Assembly (NCBI GenBank): GCA_021851895.1
Contig: JAJZQJ010000004.1
Location: forward strand, 9,127-73,126
Source: a bacterium
GTDB lineage: Bacteria > Patescibacteriota > Minisyncoccia > Phycocordibacterales > UBA6899
Reading direction: 5' to 3'
Length of the DNA: 64,000 nt
Translations under genes and position numbers: made by a program
Shown here: in pieces, positions 1,654 through 43,073 of the stretch
Numbering within the stretch: the first letter of the stretch is position 1
Layout: every line of letters begins with the position of its first letter
Notes under the pieces: generated by a model
What the model was told of the DNA's origin: nothing
The model's input: only the letters and a program-made list of their open reading frames with translations
The model's database searches: none

Positions 1654-1757
1654 ATTTTACCGTCCGACACTATATTTGCAACAGTATGGGCTTGATTTTC
1701 ATATCTCGATGTGGAGAATTCGTCAGTCGCAAAATATTCTCATGCTATGATGGAGTG

Positions 1758-7244: not shown

Positions 7245-7273
7245 TTGACAAAAGTAAAATTTGAGAGTAGTAT
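7245..7273 (+). promoter_or_regulatory. sigma70-like promoter TTGACA-17-TAGTAT upstream of rpsS, followed by a ~300-nt leader
   Basis: consensus hexamers read from sequence; leader contains a tandem 14-mer (7411-7438) and a perfect palindrome agaaggcatatgccttct (7538-7556). Confidence 0.45.
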
Positions 7274-7578
7274 CGAATCCAAGCTAATTGAATAAGGAAA
7301 TTTCTACGCCGTGGGAGGATCAGGGGCGCTAGATTTTCTATGTCAATACGCGGTCGAGTAGTGCATGGGAGATAGGATGTAGGTGCTAGTGAATGCAATT
7401 TGTATTTCACTATTCCCTATACCCTATTCCCTATACCCTCGGCATTTAATAGTATCGTTAAACTCCGCATCTTCTTAGAGAAGCTATACGACATCCTCCC
7501 TCGTGTCGGTGATCCTTCGTAAGATTCGGCAGGAACATACAGGGAGAAGGCATATGCCTTCTACCTTCAATCAACAAC

Positions 7579-7923
7579 ATGACGCGTTCACTTAAAAAGG
7601 GTCCTTACGTCTACGATCGCCTCCTCAAGAAAATCGAGGGGAAGCGTCCAGAAGACATGGGGGTCATCAAGACTTGGGCACGTGCGTCGGTCATCTCACC
7701 AGAGATGCTCAACTTCACGTTCGGTGTCCACAATGGAAAGGACTTCATCGAAGTCAAGGTTACTGAGGATATGATCGGACATCGCTTTGGCGAGTTCTCT
7801 CAGACTCGTAAGTTTACAAGACACGGAGGTAAGATGCAGAAGGAGCTCGAGCAGAAGCAGAAGCTCGCTGAGGTAGCTGCAGCAAAGGCAGCAAAGGCTT
7901 CCGGTGATGCTAAGAAGAAGTAA
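7579..7923 (+). CDS. rpsS: 30S ribosomal protein S19 with Lys/Ala-rich C-terminal extension
   Basis: MTRSLKKGPYVYDRLLKKIE...HNGKDFIEV...GHRFGEF matches S19. Confidence 0.9.
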   Translation: MTRSLKKGPYVYDRLLKKIEGKRPEDMGVIKTWARASVISPEMLNFTFGVHNGKDFIEVKVTEDMIGHRFGEFSQTRKFTRHGGKMQKELEQKQKLAEVAAAKAAKASGDAKKK

Positions 7924-7931
7924 AGACGCAT

Positions 7932-8402
7932 ATGCAATACGCAACAGCAAAACTCTCTGCTTATCGCACATCACCTCGTAAGATGGGTCTCGTCGCGGGT
8001 CTCATCCGTGGCATGAAGGCATCACAAGCAGCAGCTGAACTCGAGCATTGTGCAAAGCGCGCAGCTCCAGTCATCGGCAAGCTCCTTGCATCAGCAGTCG
8101 CTAACGCAAAGGCGCTCGGCATGAATGTCGACGCACTTCGCGTCGTCGAGGTCCGTGTAGACAAAGGTTCGGTACTCAAGCGCTCAATGCCACGTGCATA
8201 TGGTCGCGCATATCCGATCCACAAGCACACGAGCCATGTCATCATTAAGCTCGCAGAAGACGTTGCAGCGATCAAGCCAGCAACGAAGGAAACAAAGGCA
8301 GTAAAGGAGGTCAAGGAGACGAAGGTCGCCAAGAAGACCACCGCAAAGAAGGAGGCTAAGGTCGACGCCCCAGCAAAGAAGACCGTAAAGAAGACAAAGT
8401 AA
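7932..8402 (+). CDS. rplV: 50S ribosomal protein L22 with Lys-rich C-terminal tail
   Basis: conserved L22 core then KETKAVKEVKETKVAKK tail. Confidence 0.9.
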   Translation: MQYATAKLSAYRTSPRKMGLVAGLIRGMKASQAAAELEHCAKRAAPVIGKLLASAVANAKALGMNVDALRVVEVRVDKGSVLKRSMPRAYGRAYPIHKHTSHVIIKLAEDVAAIKPATKETKAVKEVKETKVAKKTTAKKEAKVDAPAKKTVKKTK

Positions 8403-8403
8403 T

Positions 8404-9219
8404 ATGTCACATCACGTACATCCCTATGCACACCGCCTTGGCACCATCCGCGGATGGCAGTCACGTTGGTTCGCAGACAACAACAAGGGTGATTACCAGG
8501 CAAATCTTCGCGCCGATGTCCTCCTTCGCCAGTACTTGGAGAAGCGACTTCGCGGCATGCACATTGCAGCGATCGAAATGGAGCGCAATGAGAAGCAGTG
8601 GAAGGTCATCATCAAGACGGGCCGCCCAGGTTTCGTCATCGGCCGTCAGGGCGAGGGCGCAACGAAGCTCAAGGCAGACATTCTCAGCAAGTGTGCACGT
8701 TGGAAGCTCAAGGCTCCAAAGGACATTCGCATCGAGATCGAGGAGGTGCGCACACCAGAGGCAAATGCAGCGATCGTTTCACAGATGGTTGCAGAGGGTC
8801 TTGAGAAGCGCCTTCCTTTCAAGCGTGTCATCAAGCAGACACTCGAGCGTGTTATGCAGACCTATGGCGTTAAGGGAGCTCGCATCGAGATCTCGGGTCG
8901 CTTGGGTGGTGCAGAAATGTCACGTCGCGAATTCGTGAAGGGAGGAAACCTTCCTCTCCAGACGATCCGCGCAGACGTTGAGTTCGCACGCGAGAAGGCA
9001 TACATGACTTACGGAGTCATCGGTATCCAGGTTTGGATTTATAAGGGTGAGGTCTTCGATGGTATGGAGCAGCGCGAAGAGCGCGCACCACGCCGTGATG
9101 ACAATCGTCGCGATGGTCGTCGCGATGGCCGTCCAGCACGTGATTCGCGCGGTCCCCGCGCACCACGCGCAGGGGCACCACGCGCGCCACGTGCACCACG
9201 TGCAGCAGCAACTAATTAA
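8404..9219 (+). CDS. rpsC: 30S ribosomal protein S3 with Arg-rich C-terminal tail
   Basis: KH/S3-C domain GRLGGAEMSRREFVKGG...; tail RRDDNRRDGRRDGRPARDSRGPRAPRAGAPRAPRAPR. Confidence 0.9.
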   Translation: MSHHVHPYAHRLGTIRGWQSRWFADNNKGDYQANLRADVLLRQYLEKRLRGMHIAAIEMERNEKQWKVIIKTGRPGFVIGRQGEGATKLKADILSKCARWKLKAPKDIRIEIEEVRTPEANAAIVSQMVAEGLEKRLPFKRVIKQTLERVMQTYGVKGARIEISGRLGGAEMSRREFVKGGNLPLQTIRADVEFAREKAYMTYGVIGIQVWIYKGEVFDGMEQREERAPRRDDNRRDGRRDGRPARDSRGPRAPRAGAPRAPRAPRAAATN

Positions 9220-9227
9220 TTCGGCAT

Positions 9228-9650
9228 ATGTTATTTCCGAAGAAGGTCAAGCATCGCAAATGGCAGAGTAACCGTTGGAACCCACGCTTCACGCATACGG
9301 AGTCACGCGGTATCACACTCGCATACGGTGCATATGGTTTGAAGGCTGAGTCCGCAGCGCGTATCACCTCGAATCAGATCGAGGCAGCACGCCGCGTGCT
9401 CTCACGCACGATCGGCAAGACTGGCCGTATCTTTATCCGCATCTTCCCTGATCGTCCATACACCGCAAAGGGTGCAGAGACGCCGATGGGTAAGGGAAAG
9501 GGAGATCCGCAGGGCTTCGTTTGCGAAGTGCTTCCGGGTCGTGTCCTCTTTGAGCTCGATGGAGTTACTCCAGAGATCGCTAAGGAGGCAGTGCGTAAGG
9601 CAGGCACGAAGCTCGCCGTCCGCTCTCGTTTCATCACTCGCGTAATCTAA
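9228..9650 (+). CDS. rplP: 50S ribosomal protein L16
   Basis: MLFPKKVKHRKWQ...QIEAARRVLSR...MGKGKGDPQGFV. Confidence 0.9.
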   Translation: MLFPKKVKHRKWQSNRWNPRFTHTESRGITLAYGAYGLKAESAARITSNQIEAARRVLSRTIGKTGRIFIRIFPDRPYTAKGAETPMGKGKGDPQGFVCEVLPGRVLFELDGVTPEIAKEAVRKAGTKLAVRSRFITRVI

Positions 9651-9655
9651 ATCAT

Positions 9656-9844
9656 ATGAAGAAATACGCAGAAATTTCAAAGTTCACTTCCTCTGAGATC
9701 ACGAAGGAGCTCGCAGAGGTTCGCCTCAAGCTCCGCGAATTTCGTGTCGGTATGGCAGGAAGTCGCGTGAAGAACGTCAAGGAGGGCCGTGTGCTTCGCA
9801 AGACGATCGCACGTTTGTTAACCGCACGTAAGGGTGCCAACTAA
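9656..9844 (+). CDS. rpmC: 50S ribosomal protein L29
   Basis: size, position and helical L29 pattern. Confidence 0.85.
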   Translation: MKKYAEISKFTSSEITKELAEVRLKLREFRVGMAGSRVKNVKEGRVLRKTIARLLTARKGAN

Positions 9845-9846
9845 AT

Positions 9847-10140
9847 ATGGAAAACACAAAAAAGCAATCACTCAATGGTGTTGTTGTTTCCGACAAGATG
9901 GACAAGACACGCGTTGTCTTGGTCACCCGTTACGAGCAGCACCCAAAGTACAAGAAGTACGTGAAGCTCCAGAAGCGCTACAAGGCGCATGATGCAACGA
10001 ACACCTACAAGGTAGGTGACAAGGTGCGCATGGAGGCTATCGCTCCGATCTCTCGCCACAAGCAGTTCGCTATCGTCGAGAAGCTCGGTCACCAGGATGT
10101 CGAGCAGTACCTCAAGGTACGTGCACAGGCACACAATTAA
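9847..10140 (+). CDS. rpsQ: 30S ribosomal protein S17
   Basis: GVVVSDKMDKTRVVLVTR...HPKYKKY matches S17. Confidence 0.9.
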   Translation: MENTKKQSLNGVVVSDKMDKTRVVLVTRYEQHPKYKKYVKLQKRYKAHDATNTYKVGDKVRMEAIAPISRHKQFAIVEKLGHQDVEQYLKVRAQAHN

Positions 10141-10167
10141 TTATCCGCAAGCTTAAATTGAAATCTT

Positions 10168-10536
10168 ATGATTCAACCACGTTCAATAGTGAAGATTGCG
10201 GATAACACCGGAGGAAAGATCGGTCGTATCTTCAAGGTCTTGGGTGGCAGCAAGCGCCGCTACGCAGGACTCGGGGATATCGTCGTCCTTTCTATCCAGA
10301 CCGCAGAGCCTCGCAAGACAGTGAAGAAGGGTGACGTTTGTAAGGCAGTTGTCGTTCGCCAGGCGAACGCACAGCGCCGTGCGGACGGTTCATACATCCG
10401 TTTCGATGAGAACGCAGTCGTGCTTCTCGATGCAAAGGGAGAGCCACGAGGCTCACGCGTCTTCGGACCAATCCCACGAGAGCTCGTTGAGAAGGGCTTC
10501 CAGAAGATCGGTACTTTGGCCCCTGAAGTTATCTAA
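10168..10536 (+). CDS. rplN: 50S ribosomal protein L14
   Basis: MIQPRSIVKIADNTGGK...IRFDENAVVLL...FGPIPREL. Confidence 0.9.
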   Translation: MIQPRSIVKIADNTGGKIGRIFKVLGGSKRRYAGLGDIVVLSIQTAEPRKTVKKGDVCKAVVVRQANAQRRADGSYIRFDENAVVLLDAKGEPRGSRVFGPIPRELVEKGFQKIGTLAPEVI

Positions 10537-10705
10537 TTAGGTGCGCGTATTTTTGACACATATTGCATGCTTCACTTTGCGACTCGCTCAATGGGCAATG
10601 AGCCCATCTCGCTTGAGTTCGCAAAGCTCCAGCATAGCAATCTGTATTCAAAATTACTTTGCACGTACGCAACTCATAAAATTATAAGTAGCAATAAAAA
10701 CTAAT

Positions 10706-10924
10706 ATGGCAAACTTCAAAAAGGGAGACACTGTTGTCGTTCTCGCGGGAGATGACAAGGGCAAGAAGGGCAAGGTCCTTCACGTGTTCACGCGAGAGGG
10801 TAAGGCGCTCGTCGAGGGCATCAATATCAAGAAGGATCACATCAAGCCTCGTGAAGAGGGTAAGAAGGGTCAGGTTATTGATAAGCCACATCCTGTGAAC
10901 CTCTCTAACCTCAAAGCGGCGTAG
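10706..10924 (+). CDS. rplX: 50S ribosomal protein L24
   Basis: MANFKKGDTVVVLAGDDKGKKGKV KOW motif. Confidence 0.85.
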   Translation: MANFKKGDTVVVLAGDDKGKKGKVLHVFTREGKALVEGINIKKDHIKPREEGKKGQVIDKPHPVNLSNLKAA

Positions 10925-11093
10925 TGAGAAGGAAGAAGGAAGAAGTAAGAAGGAGCTGTAAAAGCAATTCTTGATTTCTCCTAAGGATCCTCTTGCATTT
11001 ATAAGGAATTAAATTCCATTGCAGAATGGTACAGTGAGTGTGCAGTGACAGTAGGTGGCTCTAGCTTCTTACTTCTCACTTCTTACTTCTCAC
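10925..11093. repeat. heptamer-built inverted-repeat element, copy 1 (arms of tandem GTRAGAA units flanking ~100-nt core)
   Basis: left arm gtgagaaggaagaaggaagaagtaagaagg, right arm cttcttacttctcacttcttacttctcac; sits inside the operon between rplX and rplE. Confidence 0.8.
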
Positions 11094-11115
11094 TAATCTC
11101 TGTAAAAACACATAT

Positions 11116-11748
11116 ATGGCAAAAGTACAAACAATGAAGGAGAAGGCACTCGCTGCTTTCCCTCTCATGAAGAAGGAGTTCGGTTACACGAACCCAATGC
11201 AGGCACCAAAGCTCGAGAAGGTACTCGTTTCAGTCGGTACTGGTAAGTTGAGTCGTGGTGACAAGAAGCGCACAGAGTTTATCGTGAGCCGCCTTTCGAC
11301 CATCACTGGACAGAAGGCATCACCACGAAAGGCAAAGAAGTCGATCGCTACGTTCAAGCTCCGTGAGGGCGAGATCATCGGTCAGCTCGTTACGCTTCGA
11401 GGAGCACGCATGTACGCGTTTCTCGACAAGTACCTCAACATCGCAATTCCACGTACGAAGGACTTCCGAGGTTTCTCGGTGAAGTCGATCGATGCGATGG
11501 GTAATGTGACGTTCGGTATCAAGGAGCACACGGTGTTCCCTGAGCACGCAGATGAGAACCTCGCAGATGTCTTCGGTATGGCGATCACGATCGTCACGAA
11601 CTGCAAGACAAAGGCAGAGGCTGAGGCATTCCTCACGAATCTTGGTTTCCCATTCCGTCCTGAGGCTGAGCTTGCGACCCGTCGCGGACTCAAGCGTTCA
11701 AAGAAGGGTGGCATGGCAACCAACATGACGCGCGGAAAGAAGAAGTAA
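11116..11748 (+). CDS. rplE: 50S ribosomal protein L5 with C-terminal extension
   Basis: L5 core motifs; extra ~30 basic residues at C-terminus. Confidence 0.9.
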   Translation: MAKVQTMKEKALAAFPLMKKEFGYTNPMQAPKLEKVLVSVGTGKLSRGDKKRTEFIVSRLSTITGQKASPRKAKKSIATFKLREGEIIGQLVTLRGARMYAFLDKYLNIAIPRTKDFRGFSVKSIDAMGNVTFGIKEHTVFPEHADENLADVFGMAITIVTNCKTKAEAEAFLTNLGFPFRPEAELATRRGLKRSKKGGMATNMTRGKKK

Positions 11749-11764
11749 TTCTCTTTCTCGCACA

Positions 11765-11792
11765 AAAAGAACCCGAAAGGGTTCTTTTTCGT
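11765..11792 (+). terminator. rho-independent terminator after rplE
   Basis: agaacccgaaagggttct + ttttt. Confidence 0.7.
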
Positions 11793-11810
11793 TCGTGCTA
11801 TACTATATAT

Positions 11811-12347
11811 ATGAAACTACGGTCACGAAGCGGTTTTACACTCATTGAATTATTGGTGGTCATTGCGATCATTGCCTTGCTCTCGAGTGTTGTACTCGCG
11901 ACACTTTCCACGGCACGTGCGAAGGCACGAGATGCACGCAGAATACAGGATATCAGGCAGTTGCAGCGTGCGATCGAACTCTATGCCGATGATCATGGTG
12001 GCCTCTATCCAACATCGGCGAATTTCGCGACGGTTGCGGATGTGGGTACGACTACCGCATATGGATCGAAGCGCATCACGAGTTCTGTTTACACGACTTG
12101 GGAAACCGATCTTGGACCGTTGCTTGCTCCGTATTTCTCAAAGATGCCGAAGGATCCGATCAATGTCGCGCCATATAGTTATGACTATCTTCCGGATGGA
12201 TATTCGCAATGTCCATCGTCGGCTCCGATGGGGAGTACGACCAAGTATGCGATCATCTTCTCTACTGAAGTGAATACGTATGACCTTTCACCACTTGAAG
12301 CACCGACATATCTTGGCGCAATCGGACGATATTGTGTGACCCCATAA
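11811..12347 (+). CDS. type IV pilin-like protein (prepilin N-terminal domain); paralog of 34635..35165
   Basis: MKLRSRSGFTLIELLVVIAIIALL...; shares ...LYADDHGGLYPTSA... and C-terminal RYCVTP with 34635..35165; preceded by tgctatactatatatATG. Confidence 0.8.
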   Translation: MKLRSRSGFTLIELLVVIAIIALLSSVVLATLSTARAKARDARRIQDIRQLQRAIELYADDHGGLYPTSANFATVADVGTTTAYGSKRITSSVYTTWETDLGPLLAPYFSKMPKDPINVAPYSYDYLPDGYSQCPSSAPMGSTTKYAIIFSTEVNTYDLSPLEAPTYLGAIGRYCVTP

Positions 12348-12350
12348 GAT

Positions 12351-12377
12351 AAAAAGACCCGATTGGGTCTTTTTTAG
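12351..12377. terminator. bidirectional terminator
   Basis: agacccgattgggtct flanked by A and T runs. Confidence 0.7.
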
Positions 12378-12961
12378 TGGAGCAAGTCGGCATGCGAAAG
12401 CTCAATGTGAAGAAGTTCGCAATTCGCATAAAGCGCCCTGCAGTTGCATGAAGGACTCTCGAATTCTGACTTGAGGTGTGTGATTGCGAGTGCGCTTCGT
12501 GCGAGAAAGCGAACGCGATCATCATTCTCAGCTCTTAAGGCAGCCGCTTTTTCGAATGCAGTATCAAGCACTCCTTGGAGTAGGGCAGATGCGATACTTT
12601 TATCGCTGTAATCAGCCCTGTCAGCGAGCGCATTTTCGTAGATGCGCGAAAGCATGTGTGCACGACGCTCGAGCAGGGCATAATCTTTCTTGAGTACGCG
12701 AAGCGACAGTGATTTCGCTGCATGCTGTTCGTCGAGTTTCCGATAGTGCATGCAGAGAGATTTCAATATCTCCGCGTGGAGAAGTGCGGGATCTCGCTGT
12801 GCATAATTCGTGATCGCCCGACAGAGCATGTGTAGCGCGCGAACGCAGTCATGCTGTAATCGTATAAAGCGTTTTTGTTTTATGATGATGAGCAGCTTGG
12901 CGCCGAGTGCGCCAAACGTGAACAGGAGAGCAATAAGGAGCATGTTGTGGAGGGAAAGCAT
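12374..12961 (-). CDS. hypothetical membrane-anchored protein (ORF extends to 13030)
   Basis: N-terminal TM helix then helical domain; ATG at 12961 with ggagaag RBS. Confidence 0.45.
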   Translation of the reverse strand: MLSLHNMLLIALLFTFGALGAKLLIIIKQKRFIRLQHDCVRALHMLCRAITNYAQRDPALLHAEILKSLCMHYRKLDEQHAAKSLSLRVLKKDYALLERRAHMLSRIYENALADRADYSDKSIASALLQGVLDTAFEKAAALRAENDDRVRFLARSALAITHLKSEFESPSCNCRALYANCELLHIELSHADLLH

Positions 12962-13075
12962 GATCTTCTCCGCCGTGATCTCACCATAGAGTACATGAGC
13001 ATGGGTATCTGTCAAAAATGTATTGCGCATTCAGTCTATTGATGATAGAAACGGTACAGAACGAAGGAGAGTGTC

Positions 13076-13645
13076 ATGAGTATTGCCATTGTTCTCGATG
13101 GACGGGAAATCGACATCACGCATCCGCGTGAGGTCTCTGCGAGTGATCGAAAGCTTATCGCCAAGTGCTTGGAAAAGGATTGGAATGACTATATCGATCT
13201 ACAAGTAGAGGAAATGGAGACCGATGGTCGGGGTGTCAGCCCACTTGCGGTGCAGGTATTCGAGTCTGCTCGGCTCGTACGGAGACTCTACCTTCCGAAA
13301 GAGAAGATGGAGAATGATGTCGAAGAGACTTACCGCGTAGGGAGATTCACGGTGAAGTTGCTGGCTTCTTGTTGCCCTACGCTGAGCAGTATGCATATCA
13401 CCGTTGTGCATGCTGGCCGTCGCTTCGCGCAGATATCGTTTCACGTGAATCCGTATGGAACTCCGCACTATGATACCGACCGCTTCAACGAGCGAAATCG
13501 TTTGAATCGGGCTTTCATCGATGCGGTGCTCAGATTCAAGGAGTCCGCGCGCACTGATGTCGAACGTATTGTGATCTTTCACAATCTGAGCCATCTCACG
13601 TTCGCCGCGTACCCGAACTATTTCCGTCGCCGTCTGCAGAAGTGA
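13076..13645 (+). CDS. hypothetical protein
   Basis: RBS aaggagag; terminator ccccgtgttgcacgggg + T-run at 13652-13678. Confidence 0.5.
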   Translation: MSIAIVLDGREIDITHPREVSASDRKLIAKCLEKDWNDYIDLQVEEMETDGRGVSPLAVQVFESARLVRRLYLPKEKMENDVEETYRVGRFTVKLLASCCPTLSSMHITVVHAGRRFAQISFHVNPYGTPHYDTDRFNERNRLNRAFIDAVLRFKESARTDVERIVIFHNLSHLTFAAYPNYFRRRLQK

Positions 13646-13699
13646 GATCAAATGCCCCGTGTTGCACGGGGTTTTCTATTGGGAAGAATACGTTCGATA

Positions 13700-13722
13700 T
13701 GAAAAACCCGCCATGGCGGGTG
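13700..13722 (-). terminator. terminator for 13727..14275
   Basis: acccgccatggcgggt hairpin followed on the minus strand by ttttt. Confidence 0.6.
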
Positions 13723-13726
13723 TCGT

Positions 13727-14275
13727 TTATGCGTAGATGACGAAATTATCCATTTCAGCCATTGCGATCGCACAGCGTCGGTAGGCGAAGAGGGGTTCCG
13801 TATTGTCCGCGGCTCCTGCATCTCGTGCAGCTTGTTCCGCACGCTCGATCGCGCGCGCCAGCATGAGACTTGGCTTCAGGGAGCTTGCTTTTGCTTTCTT
13901 GATCGCACGCGGAAGTTTCTCCGCGAAGAGCTCATTGCACGCTAGGGCAAAGCGATCTTCGTCGAGGTGTGAGAGCAGGAGCGGTGACGTAATGAATTCC
14001 ATCTCTAGAATGAAACAGCGCATTGCGAGAAGTTTCGGGACGAGGGCAGGAAGAGATAAGGTTCTTTCTTCAAAGGACTTACGGGTCGCGGTGATTGACG
14101 CGCACATGTCCGTCATGCTCCCGACGGGCAGGGCTGGGTTCAGTGCAAAAGTATGGCAGGCTTCCTCGAATCTCTTGAGGTCATTTGAAAATGACGAGGT
14201 GATGCGTCGCTTGATGGCTGTAAAAAATAGCCAAATGAAGACGAGTGAGATGAGGAGGGAGAGCTTGAAAAGCAT
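13727..14275 (-). CDS. hypothetical membrane-anchored protein
   Basis: N-terminal TM helix; RBS ggaga; -10 taatat upstream. Confidence 0.5.
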   Translation of the reverse strand: MLFKLSLLISLVFIWLFFTAIKRRITSSFSNDLKRFEEACHTFALNPALPVGSMTDMCASITATRKSFEERTLSLPALVPKLLAMRCFILEMEFITSPLLLSHLDEDRFALACNELFAEKLPRAIKKAKASSLKPSLMLARAIERAEQAARDAGAADNTEPLFAYRRCAIAMAEMDNFVIYA

Positions 14276-14418
14276 GGTGTCTCCAGGGAACAGGGCCTAT
14301 CTTCATATTACCTCCGACCCCAATTGTGTCAAAACGGCCAATGTTAGGGCTATATATGCACTTATGTGTAAATGACGGTTTTTAGTCAATTGGTGAGCTG
14401 GTTTTAGTCATAGATATC

Positions 14419-14448
14419 TTGACTTTTCTTCACTTTTCCGGTAAATTG
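14419..14448 (+). promoter_or_regulatory. sigma70-like promoter TTGACT-18-TAAATT re-initiating the rpsN-secY part of the r-protein cluster, followed by a ~150-nt structured leader
   Basis: hexamers read from sequence; leader hairpin ctccttttgtg...cacaaaagaag. Confidence 0.4.
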
Positions 14449-14603
14449 AGCGAACGGAGATGTCATCCGCCACTCTCCTTTTGTGCCCACTTGGACACAA
14501 AAGAAGTGTTGCGCGATATGCTCTTCGTTTATAAACCCAGCCGCTTAGGAAAGCGTGCTTTTGCGTCATGCAGAAGTACATTCCTTCGCGAAAGCAAATA
14601 AGA

Positions 14604-14789
14604 ATGGCAAAAAAGTCAGTCATCGCACGCTCGAAGAAGACCCCAAAGTTTTCTACGCGCGCAGTGAACCGCTGTTTCAAATGCGGTCGCAAGCATGGTT
14701 ACATTCGCGACTTCGATCTCTGTCGCATCTGTTTCCGTGAATTAGCAAACGAGGGTAAGATCCCGGGAGTAACGAAGTCATCATGGTAG
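14604..14789 (+). CDS. rpsN: 30S ribosomal protein S14 (Zn-ribbon type Z)
   Basis: [12 protein letters not shown]...[25 protein letters not shown]...SW, 61 aa, CxxC...CxxC. Confidence 0.85.
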
Positions 14790-15190
14790 TCACCGATCCT
14801 ATCGCAGACATGTTGGTGCGTATCAAGAATGCAGGAGATGCAGGCAAGGCAATTGTCGACGTTCCACATTCTGATATCAAGCTCCGCATCGCAAATGTCC
14901 TCATCAAGGAGGGATTCGTCGAGTACGCGACGAAGAAGATCAAGAAGGTCGGCAATCGCCAGGTTCGTGTGATCGAGATCGGTCTCAAGAATCAGGCAGG
15001 AGCACCTTATATCCGCGGCATGGAGCGCGTATCGCGTTCATCCGTCCGTGTTTACAAGGGAGCAGCAGAGTTGCGCCCAGTAAAGAACGGTTATGGCATC
15101 ATGGTCGTCTCGACGCCAAAGGGAATTATGAGCGACGCACAGGCACGCAAGGAGCATGTCGGTGGTGAAGTCATCTGTAAGGTCTGGTAA
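14783..15190 (+). CDS. rpsH: 30S ribosomal protein S8
   Basis: [18 protein letters not shown]... Confidence 0.9.
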
Positions 15191-15191
15191 T

Positions 15192-15725
15192 ATGTCACGT
15201 CTCGCAAAAAAGCCGCTCGTGCTTCCTAAGGGAGTCGAGGCGAAGCTTGATGGTACAACGCTTACCGTCAAGGGTCCAAAGGGTGAACTTACACGTTCAT
15301 TCCCAGAATTCGTAAAGTTCGTTATTGCAGACAATGCAATCACCGTAAGCATCGATTCAGTTGAGCGTAAGGATCAGCCGATGCTCGGAACCTCAGCTGC
15401 GCTCGCGCGCAATATGGTTGTCGGAGTTACGGAGGGTTTCAAGAAGCAGCTCCTCATCGAGGGTGTCGGCTTCAAGGCAGATGCAAAGGGTGAAGAGCTC
15501 CACATGGCGCTCGGGTTCTCGCATCCTGTCGTCGTTGCAGTGCCTAAGGGACTCAAGGTCACCACAGGTAAGGGAACGATCGACGTCGAAGGTATCGATA
15601 AGGAACTTGTCGGTGCATTCGCAGCTGATGTGCGCGCGCTCAAGAAGCCTGAGCCATTCAAGGGTAAGGGCATCCGCTATGTCGATGAGGTTATTCGCCG
15701 TAAGCAGGGTAAGAAGTCTGCATAA
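15192..15725 (+). CDS. rplF: 50S ribosomal protein L6
   Basis: MSRLAKKPLVLPKGV...GVTEGF...PEPYKGKGIRY pattern. Confidence 0.9.
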   Translation: MSRLAKKPLVLPKGVEAKLDGTTLTVKGPKGELTRSFPEFVKFVIADNAITVSIDSVERKDQPMLGTSAALARNMVVGVTEGFKKQLLIEGVGFKADAKGEELHMALGFSHPVVVAVPKGLKVTTGKGTIDVEGIDKELVGAFAADVRALKKPEPFKGKGIRYVDEVIRRKQGKKSA

Positions 15726-15730
15726 TACTA

Positions 15731-15823
15731 AGTAAGAAGGAAACAGTAAGAAGTAAGAAGGAAAAACTAGAACGTATTTGCGCTTCAGGATCACCTTCTC
15801 ACTTCTCACTTCTCACTTCTCAC
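15731..15823. repeat. heptamer-built inverted-repeat element, copy 2
   Basis: left arm agtaagaaggaaacagtaagaagtaagaagg, right arm ccttctcacttctcacttctcacttctcac; between rplF and rplR. Confidence 0.8.
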
Positions 15824-15834
15824 TACTTAAACTT

Positions 15835-16188
15835 ATGATGAATAAAACACAGCAAAAGCAGTACAACCTCATGCGCCGAAGCAATCGCATTCGCGCAAAG
15901 ATCGTTGGAACTGCAGCAAAGCCTCGTCTCGCGGTCTTTCGTTCGACCGTACACATGCAGGCACAGCTCATCGATGATGTGAAGGGAATCACCCTCGCAG
16001 CCGCTCATGACCTCAAGGACATGAAGGGTACAAAGATGGAGCGCGCAGTCGCAGTGGGCAAGCAGCTCGCAGCAGCCGCAAAGGCAAAGGGTATTACAGC
16101 AGTCGTCTTTGATCGTGGAGGTTTCCTCTACGCAGGTCGCGTCAAGGCACTCGCAGATGCAGCTCGCGAAGGCGGTCTCGTCTTCTAA
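15835..16188 (+). CDS. rplR: 50S ribosomal protein L18
   Basis: ...RLAVFRS...[17 protein letters not shown]; start moved to ATG 15835 because the ORF's 5' end is the repeat arm. Confidence 0.85.
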
Positions 16189-16202
16189 TTCGAAATATCT
16201 AT

Positions 16203-16883
16203 ATGGAAGCAAATAACAAGACAGCAGAAGCAGCAGCTCCAGCAGCAGCTCGCCCAGCAGGCGCACGCCCAATGGGTCCTCGCACTGGTGGACGCCCAGG
16301 TTTCGGTGGTGCTCGCGGTGGTGCTCGCGGTGGCCGTGATGGTCAGCGCGGAGGTCGTGACGGTCAGCGCGGAGGTCGCGCAGAGCGTCCAAAGCCTGAG
16401 TTCGACCAGAAGTCGATCGACGTTCGTCGCGTGGCCCGCGTGGTCACCGGAGGTCGCCGTTTCTCATTCTCAGTTGCGATGATCATCGGTGACCGAAAGG
16501 GTCGCGTTGGTGTCGGTACGGGAAAGGCAGGAGATATCTCTCTTGCTATGGAGAAGGCAGTGAAGGATGCAAAGAAGCACATGATCACTGTCCGCACGAC
16601 GAAGTCACATTCGATCGCGCATGACGTTAAGGCAAAGAGCTCTTCGGCGATCATTGAGATCCGTCCAGCTCCAGAGCGCGGTCTCGTCGCAGGTTCAGCA
16701 GTACGTAACGTACTTGAGCTTGCAGGTGTGACTGATGTCACCGCGAAGATCCTCTCGGGAAGCAAGAACAAGCTTAACATTGCCCGTGCAACGATCGTTG
16801 CACTCGAAAATCTCCGTGCGCCAAAGAAGGCGAAGGAGGCCGCTCCAAAGGTCGAAGAGGTGGCAGCAGAAACTAAAGCGTAA
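16203..16883 (+). CDS. rpsE: 30S ribosomal protein S5 with N-terminal RGG-repeat extension
   Basis: S5 core RVARVVTGGRRFSF...; N-terminus GGARGGARGGRDGQRGGRDGQRGG. Confidence 0.9.
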   Translation: MEANNKTAEAAAPAAARPAGARPMGPRTGGRPGFGGARGGARGGRDGQRGGRDGQRGGRAERPKPEFDQKSIDVRRVARVVTGGRRFSFSVAMIIGDRKGRVGVGTGKAGDISLAMEKAVKDAKKHMITVRTTKSHSIAHDVKAKSSSAIIEIRPAPERGLVAGSAVRNVLELAGVTDVTAKILSGSKNKLNIARATIVALENLRAPKKAKEAAPKVEEVAAETKA

Positions 16884-16888
16884 AACAT

Positions 16889-17320
16889 ATGCAGTTAAAT
16901 GAACTCAAGCGCGCAAACGCAAACATCGGCACAAGTCGTGTCGGTCGTGGTGGTAAGCGCGGAAAGACCGCAGGTCGTGGTACCAAGGGTCAGAAGGCAC
17001 GTTCAGGACATCGCATCCGTCCGAATATGCGCGATATCATCAAGAAGTATCCAAAGCTTCGTGGCTACAAGTTCTCTTCAACAGAGGTGAAGCCAGAGGT
17101 GGTGAATCTTGCTGTGATCGAATTGCATTTTGAGAATGGTGATACCGTTTCTCCTGCAACACTCATCGAAAAGAAGCTCGTACGTAAGTTCGCTGGTCGC
17201 ACCCCAGAGGTCAAGATCCTCGCAACAGGTGCGCTTTCAAAGAAGCTTACTGTTACTGGATGCATTCTCTCTGCGGCCGCAAAGGCAGCAGTAGAGAAGG
17301 CTGGTGGGAAGGTTGCGTAA
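16889..17320 (+). CDS. rplO: 50S ribosomal protein L15 (no L30 gene between S5 and L15)
   Basis: GRGGKRGKTAGRGTKGQKARSG motif. Confidence 0.85.
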   Translation: MQLNELKRANANIGTSRVGRGGKRGKTAGRGTKGQKARSGHRIRPNMRDIIKKYPKLRGYKFSSTEVKPEVVNLAVIELHFENGDTVSPATLIEKKLVRKFAGRTPEVKILATGALSKKLTVTGCILSAAAKAAVEKAGGKVA

Positions 17321-17420
17321 TTATCCAATAGTGTAAGCGTGCGGAGTCGTGCTGCCGCAGCCCATGTTTCATGAGTTGCGCACACACTCCGACTGCTTAC
17401 TACTTCTAAACATTACGCGT

Positions 17421-18692
17421 ATGACCAACTTCTTCAATAAGGTCCACGCGATCTTCGCGGATCCAGTGCTCCGTCGCCGAATGCTCTTCACGATCGGCGC
17501 ACTCGTACTTTTCCGCCTTGCTGCGGCAGTGCCTATTCCAGGTGTTGACGCAACACGACTCGCGCGTGTCCTCGAGCAAAACCAGTTTCTCGGTCTGCTC
17601 AATGTGTTCTCTGGTTCCGGTTTGGGCAATCTCTCGATAGTGATGCTCGGTGTCGGTCCAAGTATCACTGCATCGATCATCATGCAGCTCCTTACGATGC
17701 TCTCGCCGAAATTGAAGGCGATGTATCACGAGGAGGGCGAGCTTGGTCGAAAGAAGTTCTATCAGGTAAGTCGCTTGATCACCATTCCACTCGCGCTCAT
17801 TCAGGGTTTTGGACTTTTGATCTTGCTTCGTAATCAGGGCGTTTTGGGCGCATCGACTCCGTTTACATTGTTCATGAACGTGCTCGTCGTGACGGCAGGA
17901 TCGATCCTCCTTATGTGGCTCGGTGAACTCATTACGGAGTTCGGTGTCGGAAACGGCTCCTCGCTCATCATCTTCGCAGGTATCGTTGTCCGTATCCCGA
18001 GCATCATCGCTCAGGTTGCGGCGAACTACACACCTTCTGACATCCCTATGTATATCGGATTTGCAGTCGTCGCATTCGGCGTTCTTGCAGCGATCATTTT
18101 GATGTCGGAGGCGGAACGTCCTGTTCCGATAACCTATGCGAAATCGGTTGCAGGCGGTCGTCAGATCGGTGGTGTTGCCACCTACTTGCCACTTCGTGTG
18201 AATCAGGCAGGTGTCATCCCAATAATCTTCGCTTTGTCGATGTTCCTCTTCCCACAGCTTATTGGTGGATTCTTGAAGGGACTCGCAAGTCCGACCGCAC
18301 AAAGTATAGGAAACTTTTTGGTGACCTATATCTCAGGCGGATGGATTCACGCAGTGCTCTACTTCTTATTGGTGCTCTTCTTCACGTATTTCTATACAGC
18401 GGTCACTTTCGATCCAGAAGCGATCGCGAAGAATTTGCAGCAGTCAGGAGCATTCATTCCAGGTATACGTCCAGGTGTTTCGACTTCCGAGTATCTCGCG
18501 AAGGTCGTCGCACGTGTGACCTTCCCTGGTGCAGTCTTCCTCGCAGTCATCGCCGTGTTGCCATTCGTGATGCAGAGCATCACCGGCAATCAGGCGCTCG
18601 CGATCGGAGGTACGGCGATCCTCATCGTCGTGTCTGTGGTCACGGATCTTGTGAAGCAGATGAATGCGCAGCTTTCGATGCGCGAATACTAA
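17421..18692 (+). CDS. secY: preprotein translocase subunit SecY
   Basis: 10-TM SecY pattern, N-terminus MTNFFNKVHAIFADPVLRRRMLFT. Confidence 0.9.
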   Translation: MTNFFNKVHAIFADPVLRRRMLFTIGALVLFRLAAAVPIPGVDATRLARVLEQNQFLGLLNVFSGSGLGNLSIVMLGVGPSITASIIMQLLTMLSPKLKAMYHEEGELGRKKFYQVSRLITIPLALIQGFGLLILLRNQGVLGASTPFTLFMNVLVVTAGSILLMWLGELITEFGVGNGSSLIIFAGIVVRIPSIIAQVAANYTPSDIPMYIGFAVVAFGVLAAIILMSEAERPVPITYAKSVAGGRQIGGVATYLPLRVNQAGVIPIIFALSMFLFPQLIGGFLKGLASPTAQSIGNFLVTYISGGWIHAVLYFLLVLFFTYFYTAVTFDPEAIAKNLQQSGAFIPGIRPGVSTSEYLAKVVARVTFPGAVFLAVIAVLPFVMQSITGNQALAIGGTAILIVVSVVTDLVKQMNAQLSMREY

Positions 18693-24629: not shown

Positions 24630-24853
24630 GAACGCCACTTCGTGGGCCAGGCGTTCTTGCCTGTAGATGAGCCGCCACCGCGGCACACAACAACTCAATT
24701 AAAACCACCACTAAAGCATAGTGGTTTTAATTTTTCAGGTAAGAAATACCCTTCGTGGGCCAGGCGTTCTTGCCTGTAGATGAGCCGCCACCGCGGCACA
24801 CAACAACTCAATTAAAACCACCACCAAAGCATAGTGGTCTTAATTTTTCAGGT
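24628..24853 (+). repeat. two tandem direct repeats (~113 nt each), each carrying two hairpins
   Basis: unit aagaacgcc...ggccaggcgttcttgcctgtagatgagccgccaccgcggcacacaacaactcaattaaaaccaccac.aaagcatagtgg.tttaatttttcaggta repeated; followed by a third terminator 24855-24887. Confidence 0.85.
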
Positions 24854-32973: not shown

Positions 32974-33180
32974 TCTTCATTTCGGACGTTTACGCTGTTT
33001 GGCGTAAACGTCCTTTTCTTTAGCATACTGCATTGACTTTTCCGTGAAAAACAGTAATATGTAAGTCAACGCTGAAGACAGCAGGTGTCCCGATAAAGGG
33101 GCTTAATCTCCTGCCGAAGTAACCAACTCTACCCCTTTTTGGGGCGGTTGATCTTCTCGTTAAGGTCGATCTTTTTATTA

Positions 33181-33274
33181 GTGAGAAGTAAGAAGTGAGA
33201 AGTGAGAAGAAATTCAATATACCTCAGGGTTCTTGAATTTCCTTCTTTCTTCTTGCTTCTCACTTCTTACTTAT
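33181..33274. repeat. heptamer-built inverted-repeat element, copy 3
   Basis: left arm gtgagaagtaagaagtgagaagtgagaag, right arm cttctttcttcttgcttctcacttcttac; immediately upstream of rplJ. Confidence 0.8.
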
Positions 33275-33281
33275 TACATAT

Positions 33282-33770
33282 ATGGCAATCACAAAGCAGA
33301 AGAAGGCAGAGATCACAGAGAAACTTTCTCTCGGTCTCTCATCAGCAGCAGGCGCAGCATTCGTCTCCGCTCGCGGTATCACCGCAAACGAAATGAATAC
33401 GCTTCGCCGTGAGCTTCGCGAGAAGGGAGTCAAGTATGCCGTTGCGAAGAAGTCGCTCATGAAGCGCGCATTCGCAGAGCGCGGTATCACTGGAACCCTT
33501 CCTGAGCTTCCAGGTGAGGTTGCAATCGCATGGTCAGCAGACCCGATCGCAGCATCAAAGGGGGTCTACGAGTTCGCGAAGGCAAACAAGGAGCGCATGC
33601 AGCTCGTCGGAGGAATCTACGAGGGCGCGTTCATGTCGAAGGAGGAGATCATGCAGCTCGCACTCGTTCCATCATACAAGGAACTCCAGGGCAAGTTCGC
33701 TGGTGTACTCAGTGCGGTCGTCACGAAGTTCGTTCGTGTAGTCGACGCAAAGGCAGCAAAGGGCGAATAA
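33282..33770 (+). CDS. rplJ: 50S ribosomal protein L10
   Basis: MAITKQKKAEITEKL...FVSARGITANEMNTLRRELREKGVKYAVAKKSL. Confidence 0.85.
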   Translation: MAITKQKKAEITEKLSLGLSSAAGAAFVSARGITANEMNTLRRELREKGVKYAVAKKSLMKRAFAERGITGTLPELPGEVAIAWSADPIAASKGVYEFAKANKERMQLVGGIYEGAFMSKEEIMQLALVPSYKELQGKFAGVLSAVVTKFVRVVDAKAAKGE

Positions 33771-42478: not shown

Positions 42479-42895
42479 ATGAAAGAGATTTTTATAAGTG
42501 TTGTTGTTGCAGTCAGCCTCATGCTGATCGGGATGTTCTTTGCGGGAAGATTGAGTATCGGTGGAGCAGCGCAGGGTGATGCGGATAGTGGCAATCAGGC
42601 AAGTGTTCAGAATGTGAGTATGGTTGATGGCAAGCAAATCATCGAGGTTACCGCGCGTGGTGGCTACTCTCCACGTTTCTCGGTCGCAAAGGCAGGTGTA
42701 CCAACGGTCATTCGCATGAAAACAGAAGGGACGTTCGATTGCTCGTCGATATTCACATTACCATCGCTCGGTATACGTGAGGCGCTTCCATCGTCTGGGG
42801 TAAAGGATATCGACATACCCGCACAAGTATCAGGCACGACGCTCACGGGCACCTGTGCGATGGGTATGTATAGCCTCCAGGTACAATTCCAGTAG
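42479..42895 (+). CDS. membrane-anchored cupredoxin-like domain protein
   Basis: TM anchor then IEVTARGGYSPRFSVAKAGVPTVIRMKTEG...TGTCAMGMYS resembling the Cupredoxin_1 fold with C/M ligands. Confidence 0.45.
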   Translation: MKEIFISVVVAVSLMLIGMFFAGRLSIGGAAQGDADSGNQASVQNVSMVDGKQIIEVTARGGYSPRFSVAKAGVPTVIRMKTEGTFDCSSIFTLPSLGIREALPSSGVKDIDIPAQVSGTTLTGTCAMGMYSLQVQFQ

Positions 42896-43073
42896 AGTCA
42901 AAGTCATGAGTCCTTGTTTCAAGTCATGAGTCATGAGTGTGAGTCATGAGATAAATATAGGAATTCACAAAGAATACACAAGCAAAAATGCTCGTGTATT
43001 TTTCGTATTTGTTTGTTCTCATGACTCATGACTTTAACTCATGACATGAAACAAGGGCTCATGACTTGGCATT
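42896..43073. repeat. inverted-repeat element built from tandem GTCATGA/AGTCATG heptamers, with an internal terminator-like hairpin
   Basis: arms gagtcaaagtcatgagtccttgtttcaagtcatgagtcatgagtgtgagtcatgag and ctcatgactcatgactttaactcatgacatgaaacaagggctcatgac; core atacacaagcaaaaatgctcgtgtattttt. Confidence 0.8.

What the first reader, a model, noticed from the sequence alone, without database searches (positions are those of the whole stretch)
10925..11093. Heptamer-built inverted-repeat elements inserted inside r-protein operons (3 copies)
At 10925-11093 (rplX|rplE), 15731-15823 (rplF|rplR) and 33181-33274 (upstream of rplJ) there are elements whose two arms are 28-35 nt of tandem GTRAGAA heptamers (gtgagaa/gtaagaa/ggaagaa) in inverted orientation. 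They flank a 30-100-nt AT-rich core that has its own small palindrome. In typical bacteria rplX-rplE and rplF-rplR are separated by a few nt. Here the elements expand the spacers to 190 and 110 nt, and rplR's ORF even reads into the arm. Transcribed through, each would form a ~30-bp near-perfect dsRNA stem. That is an ideal RNase III substrate, so they may act as operon-processing or insulation sites. Alternatively they are MITE-like mobile insertions that target highly expressed operons.
Basis: seen in the sequence. Interest (0 to 1): 0.6.

Follow-up and report, generated by a model that had tools for sequence, protein, structure and literature searches.

The report
Heptamer-armed hairpin repeats in operon spacers
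The inverted heptamer arrays are real: they are short, fast-evolving palindromic repeat elements that fill the gaps between genes in this candidate-phyla bacterium and its relatives, they resemble the poorly understood heptamer (STRR) hairpins of cyanobacteria, and nothing here shows that the cell uses them as RNA-processing sites.

Summary
The window holds five hairpin elements with heptamer-periodic arms, not three. Three use GTRAGAA, one uses GTCATGA (42895-43068, not next to an r-protein gene) and one uses GGNNNTA/CTATWCC (7367-7440). All fold into long stems (z -4.4 to -13).

They are not one MITE with a shared core. The cores are unrelated. E1's core is an ancestral rplE-leader motif, and E1 is best read as two ~70-nt units flanking it.

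Close relatives show rapid turnover. One 91%-identity relative lacks E1 and E2. An 87% relative carries GTAAGAA elements in other spacers of the same operon. More distant CPR relatives carry genome-specific heptamer families, in near-identical copies of ~80-90 nt, that fill stop-to-start spacers exactly. The same architecture recurs across many phyla and occasionally in phage contigs.

Arm mismatches show no bias toward G.U on the sense strand, so nothing indicates selection on the RNA stem.

Best reading: these are DNA-level palindromic repeats (STRR-hairpin-like, REP/MITE-like) whose arms grow by 7-nt slippage. They are probably tolerated in this Shine-Dalgarno-less genome because the hairpin loops itself out and keeps stop and start codons close. 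RNase III cleavage is plausible but untested. This is a new variant of a known kind, of moderate interest.

The parts
7367..7391 (+). E0 5' arm: degenerate heptamers GGAGATA GGATGTA GGTGCTA GTG, in the rpsS leader
   Evidence: Sequence. Pairs with 7408-7440 in the fold of 7340-7460 (-37.1 kcal/mol).
7408..7440 (+). E0 3' arm: CTATTCC/CTATACC x4.3
   Evidence: TRF period 7, 4.3 copies; fold. A promoter-like site at 7245-7273 places it in a ~300-nt leader.
10922..10952 (+). E1 5' arm (GTGAGAA GGAAGAA GGAAGAA GTAAGAA), starting in the rplX stop codon TAG
10953..10996 (+). E1a loop plus degenerate pyrimidine array (TTCTTGA TTTCTCC). With the 5' arm it forms a local ~70-nt hairpin.
   Evidence: Fold of 10918-10998: -22.9 kcal/mol, z -2.6.
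11004..11034 (+). Ancestral rplE-leader motif (small hairpin GGAATTAAATTCC plus ATTGCAGAATGGTACA) enclosed by E1. It is not part of a mobile core.
   Evidence: Conserved in L121, L126, L127, L130, L131 and L122 (alignment A1). No Rfam match.
11035..11064 (+). E1b degenerate purine array (GTGAGTG TGCAGTG ACAGTAG) plus short loop, at the position of the variable 'hairpin 2' of relatives
   Evidence: Fold of 11030-11100: -22.8 kcal/mol, z -2.9. Comparison with L121 and L127.
11065..11095 (+). E1 3' arm (CTTCTTA CTTCTCA x2), ending 20 nt before the rplE ATG (11116)
15730..15761 (+). E2 5' arm (GTAAGAA-type units), starting 4 nt after the rplF stop codon
15762..15793 (+). E2 core, unrelated to the other cores, with a small internal hairpin
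15794..15824 (+). E2 3' arm (CTTCTCA x4.3, 100% internal identity), ending 10 nt before the rplR ATG (15835)
   Evidence: TRF.
33176..33212 (+). E3 5' arm (GTGAGAA GTAAGAA GTGAGAA GTGAGAA GAAA), just after a terminator-like hairpin in the rplJ leader
33213..33245 (+). E3 core with its own small palindrome (AAATTCAA...TTGAATTT)
33246..33282 (+). E3 3' arm, running up to the rplJ start codon (ATG at 33282)
42895..42951 (+). E4 5' arm, GTCATGA-type heptamers, starting at the stop codon of the cupredoxin-like ORF
42970..43003 (+). Terminator-like hairpin with a U-run inside the E4 core
   Evidence: Fold of 42950-43020: z -4.2. Not flagged by the simple scan.
43017..43068 (+). E4 3' arm, CTCATGA-type heptamers, upstream of the VirD4/TraG-like ORF

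Best explanation
The elements are small non-coding palindromic repeats. Each unit is typically ~70-110 nt, with two arms of about four tandem heptamers in inverted orientation around a short loop. They arise and spread at the DNA level and turn over quickly. Within a genome one or a few heptamer 'families' exist: GTRAGAA, GTCATGA and GGNNNTA here, and other units in other genomes. Copies occupy the only permissive places in a compact genome, which are the stop-to-start junctions inside operons and the 5' leaders. Arm length and unit sequence are shaped by 7-nt replication slippage within each arm, which explains why an arm is internally homogeneous yet can differ from its partner. Copying between sites explains the near-identical copies, loops included, seen in relatives. 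The elements are transcribed as part of the mRNA and fold into long hairpins. The hairpin loops the insertion out, so the upstream stop codon and the downstream start codon stay within about 5-25 nt of each other at the base of the stem. In this genome, which lacks Shine-Dalgarno sequences, that would preserve, and probably enforce, termination-reinitiation coupling. That is probably why only hairpin-shaped insertions persist here. Shown: the anatomy, the folding potential, the family structure, the turnover, the positions and the lack of an RNA-selection signature. Inferred: slippage as the source of the periodicity, the mode of spread, and the coupling-compatible geometry as the reason they are tolerated.
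For: Real and non-random. Five elements with three unit types in 64 kb, with non-homologous cores. Turnover: L121 (L5 91% identical) has ~80-nt and 25-nt spacers without arms. The P0004 contig (91%) has a 193-nt rplX|rplE spacer like the window. L126 (87%) has GTAAGAA elements at rplP|rpmC, rpmC|rpsQ and rplX|rplE. L131 (79%) has a GAGAATA element at rpsQ|rplN. Dispersed families: in L188 five near-identical TAGCTTG/CTACCAG copies and three to four TAGTACC/TACTAAG copies (84-93 nt) fill successive spacers, whereas empty spacers are 22-29 nt; L143 has three TAGGCAC/CCTAGAG copies. Position: 17 of 21 paired elements in CPR relatives span stop to start, at -3 to +20 nt and -2 to +16 nt. Generality: period 7 dominates the tandem repeats (432 arrays in the cross-phylum loci, 137 in the CPR loci). 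100 of 356 arrays have an inverted partner within 400 nt. Arms are ~31 nt everywhere. The architecture also occurs in phage contigs. Slippage signature: arms are internally uniform but differ from their partner (E2; L126). No RNA-level selection: sense-strand G.U against A.C is 10:9 (window), 7:21 (CPR) and 34:25 (cross-phylum). No SD: only 6 of 30 genes have even a loose SD-like tetramer, and native stops lie 4-14 nt before the next ATG. Precedents: STRR 7-bp hairpins in hupS-hupL and other cyanobacterial spacers (PMC2670836); TAACTGA heptamer repeats inside r-protein operons, and the polymerase-slippage explanation for heptamers from Mrazek 2007 as summarised in PMC4679880.
Against: No transposase, recombinase or target-site duplication was identified, so the mode of spread is unknown. 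The rest of the source genome could not be retrieved, so the genome-wide copy number and distribution of the window's families are unknown. Slippage alone does not explain how two arms become inverted copies of each other. It also does not explain why the same GTRAGAA unit, always with the purine arm at the 5' end (13 of 13; 77 against 5 overall), recurs in unrelated phyla. The modest enrichment of stop-containing units and the 'stops-first' polarity (p ~0.04) hint at some selection that this model does not require. Four of the five elements in the window are next to r-protein genes, which occupy ~13% of the window. This may reflect something beyond permissiveness.
Confidence: 0.6

Rival explanations
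1. Selected RNase III (double-strand-specific RNase) processing or insulation sites. The long stems are cut to split the polycistronic r-protein mRNA into separately stable units, as at the intercistronic RNase III sites of phage T7 early mRNA or at Correia elements in Neisseria.
For: The predicted stems of 25-50 bp are long enough for RNase III. All elements lie in transcribed spacers or leaders in the sense orientation. The base of each stem sits at the gene boundaries.
Against: There is no positional conservation: the same spacers are only 2-25 nt long in close relatives. There is no sense-strand G.U bias and there are no compensatory changes. E2 folds worse on the sense strand than on the antisense strand. 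The L126 arrays are poorly complementary (z -0.5 to -2.2). No RNase III gene lies in the window, which is not informative for the whole genome. Cleavage could occur as a side effect without being the reason the elements exist.
Confidence: 0.15
2. Classical MITEs: the heptamer arms are terminal inverted repeats recognised by a transposase encoded elsewhere in the genome, and the elements insert preferentially into highly expressed operons.
For: Presence/absence polymorphism between close relatives. Near-identical copies, loops included, in L188 and L143. Three copies on one phage contig.
Against: The cores of the window's three GTRAGAA elements are unrelated. E1's arms flank ancestral sequence. 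The number of heptamers per arm varies. No target-site duplication is visible, and filled spacers have shorter native flanks than empty ones. The window holds no transposase. Unit sequences are genome-specific and very diverse (155 canonical heptamers), which is hard to reconcile with recognition by one transposase family.
Confidence: 0.12
3. Arrays of binding sites for a trans-acting factor. On the mRNA this could be a single-strand RNA-binding protein such as S1, Csp or CsrA-like proteins, as proposed for TAACTGA repeats. On the DNA it could be a protein that reads tandem heptads, like the omega repressor of inc18 plasmids. In this view the inverted arrangement is secondary.
For: The 3' array abuts the start codon in an SD-less genome. 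In L126 the two arrays keep their positions but are not complementary. Units are genome-specific, as expected for a co-evolving factor. The TAACTGA precedent (PMC4679880).
Against: No candidate factor was identified. Several unrelated units coexist in one genome (three in this window). Sites are gained and lost too quickly for a regulon. Most pairs are 80-90% complementary, which free single-stranded binding sites would not need.
Confidence: 0.08

Closest known systems
Cyanobacterial STRR (short tandemly repeated repetitive) heptamer hairpins, e.g. in the hupS-hupL spacer and upstream of hoxW (PMC2670836; STRR originally Mazel et al. 1990, from my own knowledge)
   Same: 7-bp tandem units. Located in intergenic and intra-operon spacers. 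Inverted arrays able to form a hairpin. Many loci per genome. Function unknown, with suggested roles in transcript stability or translational coupling.
   Different: Different phylum (CPR/Parcubacteria-like) and different units. Here the elements fill stop-to-start junctions of r-protein operons exactly. Site turnover between close relatives and the ~4+4 unit architecture are documented here. No homology is implied.
TAACTGA intergenic heptamer direct repeats of marine Beggiatoaceae, cyanobacteria and Bacteroidetes (MacGregor 2015, PMC4679880)
   Same: Tandem heptamers just upstream of start codons, including inside r-protein operons. The genes concerned lack canonical ribosome-binding sites. 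The phylogenetic distribution is patchy across phyla. The unit contains stop codons.
   Different: Those are almost all direct repeats (169 direct sets against one indirect). Here the defining feature is the inverted pair that forms a long stem.
REP / REPIN elements (PMC3733652; PMC3116915)
   Same: Short palindromic extragenic repeats, often as inverted dimers that fold into larger hairpins. Mostly downstream of coding regions between co-directional or convergent genes. Families are species-specific.
   Different: REPs have no heptamer periodicity. They carry a GTAG or CGTC tag and are linked to RAYT transposases. Here a GTAG precedes only E1, and no RAYT was seen in the window.
Correia (Neisseria) and ERIC (Yersinia) elements; intercistronic RNase III sites of phage T7 (from my own knowledge)
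   Same: Hairpin-forming insertions in transcribed spacers that can be processed by RNases and can change the expression of flanking genes.
   Different: Those have fixed consensus sequences. Correia elements also have TA target duplications, and cleavage has been demonstrated experimentally. None of this is shown here.

Membership tests
STRR-type / long-SSR heptamer repeats | Tandem repeats with a 7-nt unit, longer than chance allows, in non-coding DNA at several loci of a genome | tested here: met
   TRF period-7 arrays at five loci, all intergenic. Pattern count 15 against 0.03 expected.
STRR-type / long-SSR heptamer repeats | Inverted arrays able to form a hairpin within an operon spacer (the hupS-hupL type) | tested here: met
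   Folds with z -4.4 to -13. Positions rplX|rplE and rplF|rplR.
MITE | Copies share terminal inverted repeats AND internal sequence | tested here: not met
   In the window, arms are shared but cores are unrelated, and E1's core is ancestral. The feature is met for other families in relatives L188 and L143.
MITE | Target-site duplication flanking the insertion | tested here: inconclusive
   Comparisons of filled and empty sites (window against L121; L188 spacers) show no clean duplication. The native spacer appears replaced or shortened.
MITE | Cognate autonomous element or transposase with matching ends | not testable with these tools
   None among the window's ORFs. The rest of the genome could not be retrieved.
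MITE | Insertion polymorphism between close relatives | tested here: met
   L121 is empty at both sites. L126 and L131 are filled at other sites.
REP/REPIN | Unpaired GTAG or CGTC tetranucleotide tag at one end of a 20-40-bp palindrome | tested here: not met
   GTAG precedes the E1 arm only (GCGTAGTGAG). E2, E3 and E4 lack it.
REP/REPIN | Associated RAYT (Y1 transposase) gene | not testable with these tools
   None in the window. The whole genome is unavailable.
RNase III processing site | About 20 bp or more of double-stranded RNA in the transcript | tested here: met
   Predicted stems of 25-50 bp. E2 is weak on the sense strand.
RNase III processing site | Demonstrated cleavage, or evolutionary maintenance of the stem | tested here: not met
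   Cleavage is not testable. Maintenance: no G.U bias or compensation, sites are not conserved, and the L126 arms are poorly complementary.
Integron attC site | Imperfect palindrome RYYYAAC...GTTRRRY between cassette ORFs, with an integrase nearby | tested here: not met
   The polarity is the opposite (purine arm at the 5' end) and the units do not fit the core-site consensus. The genes are a conserved r-protein operon, and the window holds no integrase. The attC consensus is taken from my own knowledge.

The most novel reading that the evidence does not exclude
The ~80-110-nt unit of 'four heptamers, loop, four inverted heptamers' may be a distinct cross-phylum class of genetic element with its own dedicated but unknown machinery for generation or mobilisation. 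This would account for the constant arm length, the genome-specific units, the strand-invariant purine-first / stops-first polarity and the presence in phages. In Shine-Dalgarno-less bacteria it would act as a coupling device. The stem masks the downstream start codon. A ribosome terminating at the stop codon at the stem base opens the stem, and this makes translation of each cistron strictly dependent on the previous one.
Probability: 0.15. Interest if true: 0.8.

Novelty: new variant of a known kind. Interest (0 to 1): 0.55.

Why it matters
CPR/Patescibacteria genomes are small and streamlined, and r-protein operons are among the most conserved and tightly packed loci in bacteria. Finding them repeatedly invaded by fast-turning-over hairpin repeats, from at least two unrelated families, shows that intercistronic junctions tolerate large insertions if the insertion folds back on itself. 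The finding gives a concrete and testable link between repeat-element structure and translational coupling in organisms without Shine-Dalgarno sequences. It also extends the long-unexplained heptamer-repeat phenomenon (STRR, TAACTGA, 'long SSRs') to a common paired-array architecture seen across many phyla, with a defined polarity. That architecture may help explain how such repeats arise. In practice, these elements inflate spacers, create spurious long ORFs (such as the 'rplR' extension) and can mislead gene callers and RNA-motif searches.

Tried and rejected
(1) Retrieving the source genome failed. No genome-wide census was therefore possible.

It gave a useful cross-phylum sample but not the source genome.

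(3) Rfam found nothing at the elements, at gathering thresholds over the whole window or at E-value thresholds over 10500-11150.

(4) Sense-strand G.U bias as a sign of RNA-level selection was absent.

(5) The 'local seed' idea. GTAAGAAG occurs in the 3' coding ends of rplX and rplF, 62 and 21 nt upstream of E1 and E2. The association does not hold in relatives, and Lys-Lys codons make AAGAAG common in r-protein genes, so the idea was dropped as a general explanation.

(6) The resemblance to integron attC sites was rejected because of the opposite polarity and the context.

(7) A single-insertion model for E1 was rejected because its core is ancestral. It was replaced by a model of two units flanking the motif.

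(8) Pfam scans of about 60 window ORFs for a transposase, RAYT, integrase or RNase III found none.

(9) Literature searches for this architecture in CPR found nothing. Elhai's small-dispersed-repeat paper is not in the library.

Full report
OBSERVATION. E1 has arms at 10922-10952 and 11065-11095 (31 nt, 90% complementary, 112 nt apart). E2 has arms at 15730-15761 and 15794-15824. E3 has arms at 33176-33212 and 33246-33282 (37 nt, 84%). The pattern GTRAGAAGTRAGAA, with up to one mismatch, occurs 15 times in the window, always inside these elements, against 0.03 expected from dinucleotide shuffles. Folded as RNA with their flanks they give long stems: -66.7 kcal/mol (z -4.35), -30.7 (z -5.0) and -47.3 (z -8.7). 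Pfam confirms the flanking genes: uL24, uL5, uL6, uL18 and uL10.

Two further elements with the same architecture but different heptamers were missed. E4 (42895-43068; GTCATGA/CTCATGA arms of 51 nt; -95.2 kcal/mol, z -13) lies between a cupredoxin-like gene and a VirD4/TraG-like ATPase gene. E0 (7367-7440; degenerate GGNNNTA x3 against CTATWCC x4.3) lies in the ~300-nt leader of rpsS. The remark that the rplR ORF reads into the arm is an artefact of the longest-ORF rule. The conserved start is ATGATGAAT at 15835.

CONTEXT. The window comes from a CPR/Patescibacteria-type bacterium. The best named L5 homologues are Lloydbacteria and Parcubacteria at 63-67% identity. The 23S and 5S rRNA genes stand without a 16S gene or tRNAs. 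Type IV pilin-like genes sit inside the r-protein cluster. The genes essentially lack Shine-Dalgarno sequences: 6 of 30 have even a loose SD-like tetramer. In the native operon spacers the stop codon lies 4-14 nt before the next ATG.

NOT ONE MITE WITH A CORE. The cores of E1, E2 and E3 are unrelated in sequence. The 'small palindrome' in E1's core belongs to a motif (small hairpin plus ATTGCAGAATGGTACA) that is conserved upstream of rplE in relatives of 72-91% L5 identity that have no heptamer arms there (alignment A1). It has no Rfam match. The arms therefore flank ancestral spacer sequence. Reading the sequence between arm and motif resolves this. After the 5' arm comes a degenerate pyrimidine array, and before the 3' arm a degenerate purine array. 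Each half folds on its own (-22.9, z -2.6; -22.8, z -2.9). E1 is best read as two ~70-nt units of the GTRAGAA family on either side of the leader motif, with intact outer arms that can also pair over the long range. E4's core similarly contains a terminator-like hairpin with a U-run (z -4.2).

TURNOVER IN CLOSE RELATIVES. L121 (L5 91% identical, syntenic from rpsS to secY) has no period-7 arrays. Its rplX|rplE spacer is ~80 nt and its rplF|rplR spacer 25 nt. L126 (87%) carries GTAAGAA arrays in rplP|rpmC, rpmC|rpsQ and rplX|rplE. The first two of those spacers are 5 and 2 nt long in the window. L131 (79%) has a GAGAATA element at rpsQ|rplN. The family is therefore older than any individual copy, and the occupied sites differ from genome to genome.

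FAMILIES IN MORE DISTANT CPR RELATIVES. Among 88 related loci (673 kb), period 7 is the most frequent tandem-repeat period (137 arrays). Twenty-one complementary array pairs were found in nine loci. The median total length is 81 nt, with arms of 31 nt (about 4.4 units), a loop of 20 nt and complementarity of 0.83. The units are genome-specific: TAGGCAC/CCTAGAG in L143, AGCTTAT/AAGCTAT in L148, TAGCTTG/CTACCAG and TAGTACC/TACTAAG in L188, AATCCTT/TTAAGGA in L158, and others. In L188, five near-identical copies of one family and three to four of another, loops included, fill successive intercistronic spacers (84-93 nt), whereas empty spacers are 22-29 nt. Seventeen of the 21 pairs span stop to start: the 5' array begins -3 to +20 nt from the stop codon and the 3' array ends -2 to +16 nt from the ATG. 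Only 6 of 54 loci of at least 3 kb carry such pairs, so these are sporadic lineage-specific blooms.

A CROSS-PHYLUM ARCHITECTURE. These came from Gemmatimonadota, Bacteroidota, Acidobacteriota, Planctomycetota, Nitrospirota, Cyanobacteria, Bacillota, Proteobacteria, Omnitrophota, CPR and others. In these loci period 7 dominates (432 arrays, against fewer than 130 for any other period), with 155 distinct units. Of 356 arrays, 100 have an inverted partner within 400 nt, against 37 with a direct one. Some elements have nested composite arms (L027, L046, L085). The purine-rich arm is at the 5' end in 77 cases against 5, and in 13 of 13 GTRAGAA pairs. This polarity is unchanged by reverse complementation. 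Fifty-five of 68 pairs abut a stop codon. Thirty-eight lie between co-directional genes and 7 between convergent genes. Twenty-eight viral contigs also carry the array. Five of 31 arrays there are paired, with the same polarity, and one contig has three copies.

IS THE RNA STEM UNDER SELECTION? Strand comparison is inconsistent. E1, E3 and E4 fold better on the sense strand and E2 on the antisense strand. Counting transition mismatches on the sense strand gives G.U against A.C of 10:9 in the window, 7:21 in CPR relatives and 34:25 cross-phylum, so the tolerated wobble is not preferred. In E2 and in L126 each arm is internally uniform but differs systematically from its partner (GTAAGAA against the complement of GTGAGAA; GTAAGAA against the complement of GTGAGTA). 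At L126 rplX|rplE the 3' array (CTAAYYA) is not complementary at all and looks seeded from the adjacent native CTAATTACAGAATGG. The L126 folds are barely better than shuffles (z -1.8, -2.2, -0.5). This is the signature of homogenisation within an arm by slippage and of decay of the palindrome, not of compensatory maintenance. A second, unrelated ~110-nt hairpin element in the same operons behaves differently: 20 of its 41 pairs show compensatory changes among only four copies.

MECHANISM. The best-supported reading is that these are DNA-level palindromic repeats. Their arms expand, contract and homogenise in 7-nt steps. The preference for heptamers among long simple repeats, attributed to polymerase slippage, is established in the literature as summarised in PMC4679880. 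Copies spread between permissive sites by an unknown route. Because every element is transcribed within an operon or leader, it will form a hairpin. That hairpin removes the insertion from the linear path between the upstream stop and the downstream start, both of which sit at the stem base. In a genome without Shine-Dalgarno sequences, where internal cistrons probably depend on termination-reinitiation, this geometry would preserve coupling. A ribosome terminating at the stop would open the lowest turn of the stem and so expose the adjacent start codon. This last step is inference. It agrees with the suggestion made for cyanobacterial STRR hairpins, 'transcript stability or translation coupling' (PMC2670836). 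RNase III could well cut the more perfect stems, but nothing indicates that the elements exist for that purpose.

Two weak signals hint at some selection. Units containing stop codons are enriched (66 of 77 against 56.6 +/- 2.9 expected). On the sense strand the 5' arm closes all three reading frames more often than the 3' arm (13 of 18 against 4 of 18 in CPR; 15 of 29 against 6 of 29 cross-phylum; p ~0.04 each).

COMPARISON WITH KNOWN SYSTEMS. The closest known systems are the cyanobacterial STRR heptamer hairpins (hupS-hupL and others) and the TAACTGA heptamer repeats of Beggiatoaceae, cyanobacteria and Bacteroidetes. The TAACTGA repeats also sit just upstream of start codons inside r-protein operons that lack ribosome-binding sites. 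REP/REPIN elements share the palindromic, species-specific, downstream-of-gene character but lack heptamer periodicity and carry GTAG/CGTC tags. Correia and ERIC elements and the T7 RNase III sites are functional analogies only. I found no description of this paired-array architecture in CPR, or as a cross-phylum class, in the searchable library.

VERDICT. It is wrong in its specifics: they are not three copies of one MITE, they are not specific to r-protein operons, and nothing shows a selected RNase III role. Novelty: a new variant of a known kind. Interest is moderate (0.55), mainly for three reasons: the invasion of highly conserved operon junctions in streamlined genomes, the cross-phylum regularity of the architecture and its polarity, and the testable link to translational coupling.

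Noticed in passing
window 10545-10660 (rplN|rplX spacer); also L126 1965-2085 and 2485-2600; L122 9785-9915: A second, unrelated spacer element: a ~110-nt rod-like hairpin with conserved blocks TTTTGAC / GCTTC / GACTC / GAGTTC / CTCCAGC / TTCAAAAT. It occupies different r-protein spacers in different genomes, and L127 has only 21 nt at rplN|rplX. Of 41 predicted pairs, 20 show compensatory changes among four copies. No Rfam match. It is a candidate mobile structured RNA.
   Followed up: partly
window 11004-11034 plus 11096-11115: A conserved rplE-leader motif: a small hairpin, ATTGCAGAATGGTACA, a variable second hairpin, then TAATCTCYGYAAAA. TTGCRGA / TCYGCAA covary between the window and L121. 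It is conserved in relatives of 72-91% identity and has no Rfam match. The position matches where S8 represses the spc operon in E. coli, so it is a possible autoregulatory site (inference).
   Followed up: partly
window 10860 and 15709: Outside the elements, GTAAGAAG occurs only three times on the + strand. Two of these lie in the 3' coding ends of rplX and rplF, 62 and 21 nt upstream of E1 and E2. It is a possible microhomology or seed, but the pattern is not seen in relatives.
   Followed up: yes
window 24638-24854: A 113-nt tandem duplication (1.9 copies, 98% identical) between the methionine aminopeptidase gene and a pilin-like DUF5122 beta-propeller gene.
   Followed up: no
window 1638-2363: An ORF with a strong alternative oxidase (AOX, PF01786) match (E 3.8e-35). 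This is unexpected in a CPR-type genome, which normally lacks a respiratory chain.
   Followed up: no
window 28429-31632: The 23S and 5S rRNA genes stand alone, with no 16S gene or tRNA nearby. No tRNA genes were found anywhere in the 64 kb (only the tmRNA at 62040-62427, next to smpB).
   Followed up: no
window 7579-18692: The r-protein cluster starts at rpsS behind its own promoter-like site and a 300-nt leader, with no rpsJ-rplCDWB upstream. It is interrupted between rplE and rpsH by about 3 kb of pilin-like (N_methyl) and unknown genes, one of them on the opposite strand.
   Followed up: partly
window 43028-52488: A VirD4/TraG-like coupling ATPase (1074 aa) is followed by a 1774-aa ORF with no Pfam match, downstream of a copper-resistance cluster (copA, DsbD_2/HMA, cupredoxin). 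This may be part of an integrated conjugative element. E4 sits at its boundary.
   Followed up: no
L127 2246-2264: A CTCATGA x2.7 array (the E4 unit) abuts the rpsN start codon in an 82%-identity relative. The GTCATGA/CTCATGA family is therefore also shared across the clade.
   Followed up: partly
window 33146-33175: A terminator-like hairpin with a T-run lies in the rplJ leader just upstream of E3, downstream of a promoter-like site at 33033-33060. It is a possible L10-leader attenuator.
   Followed up: no
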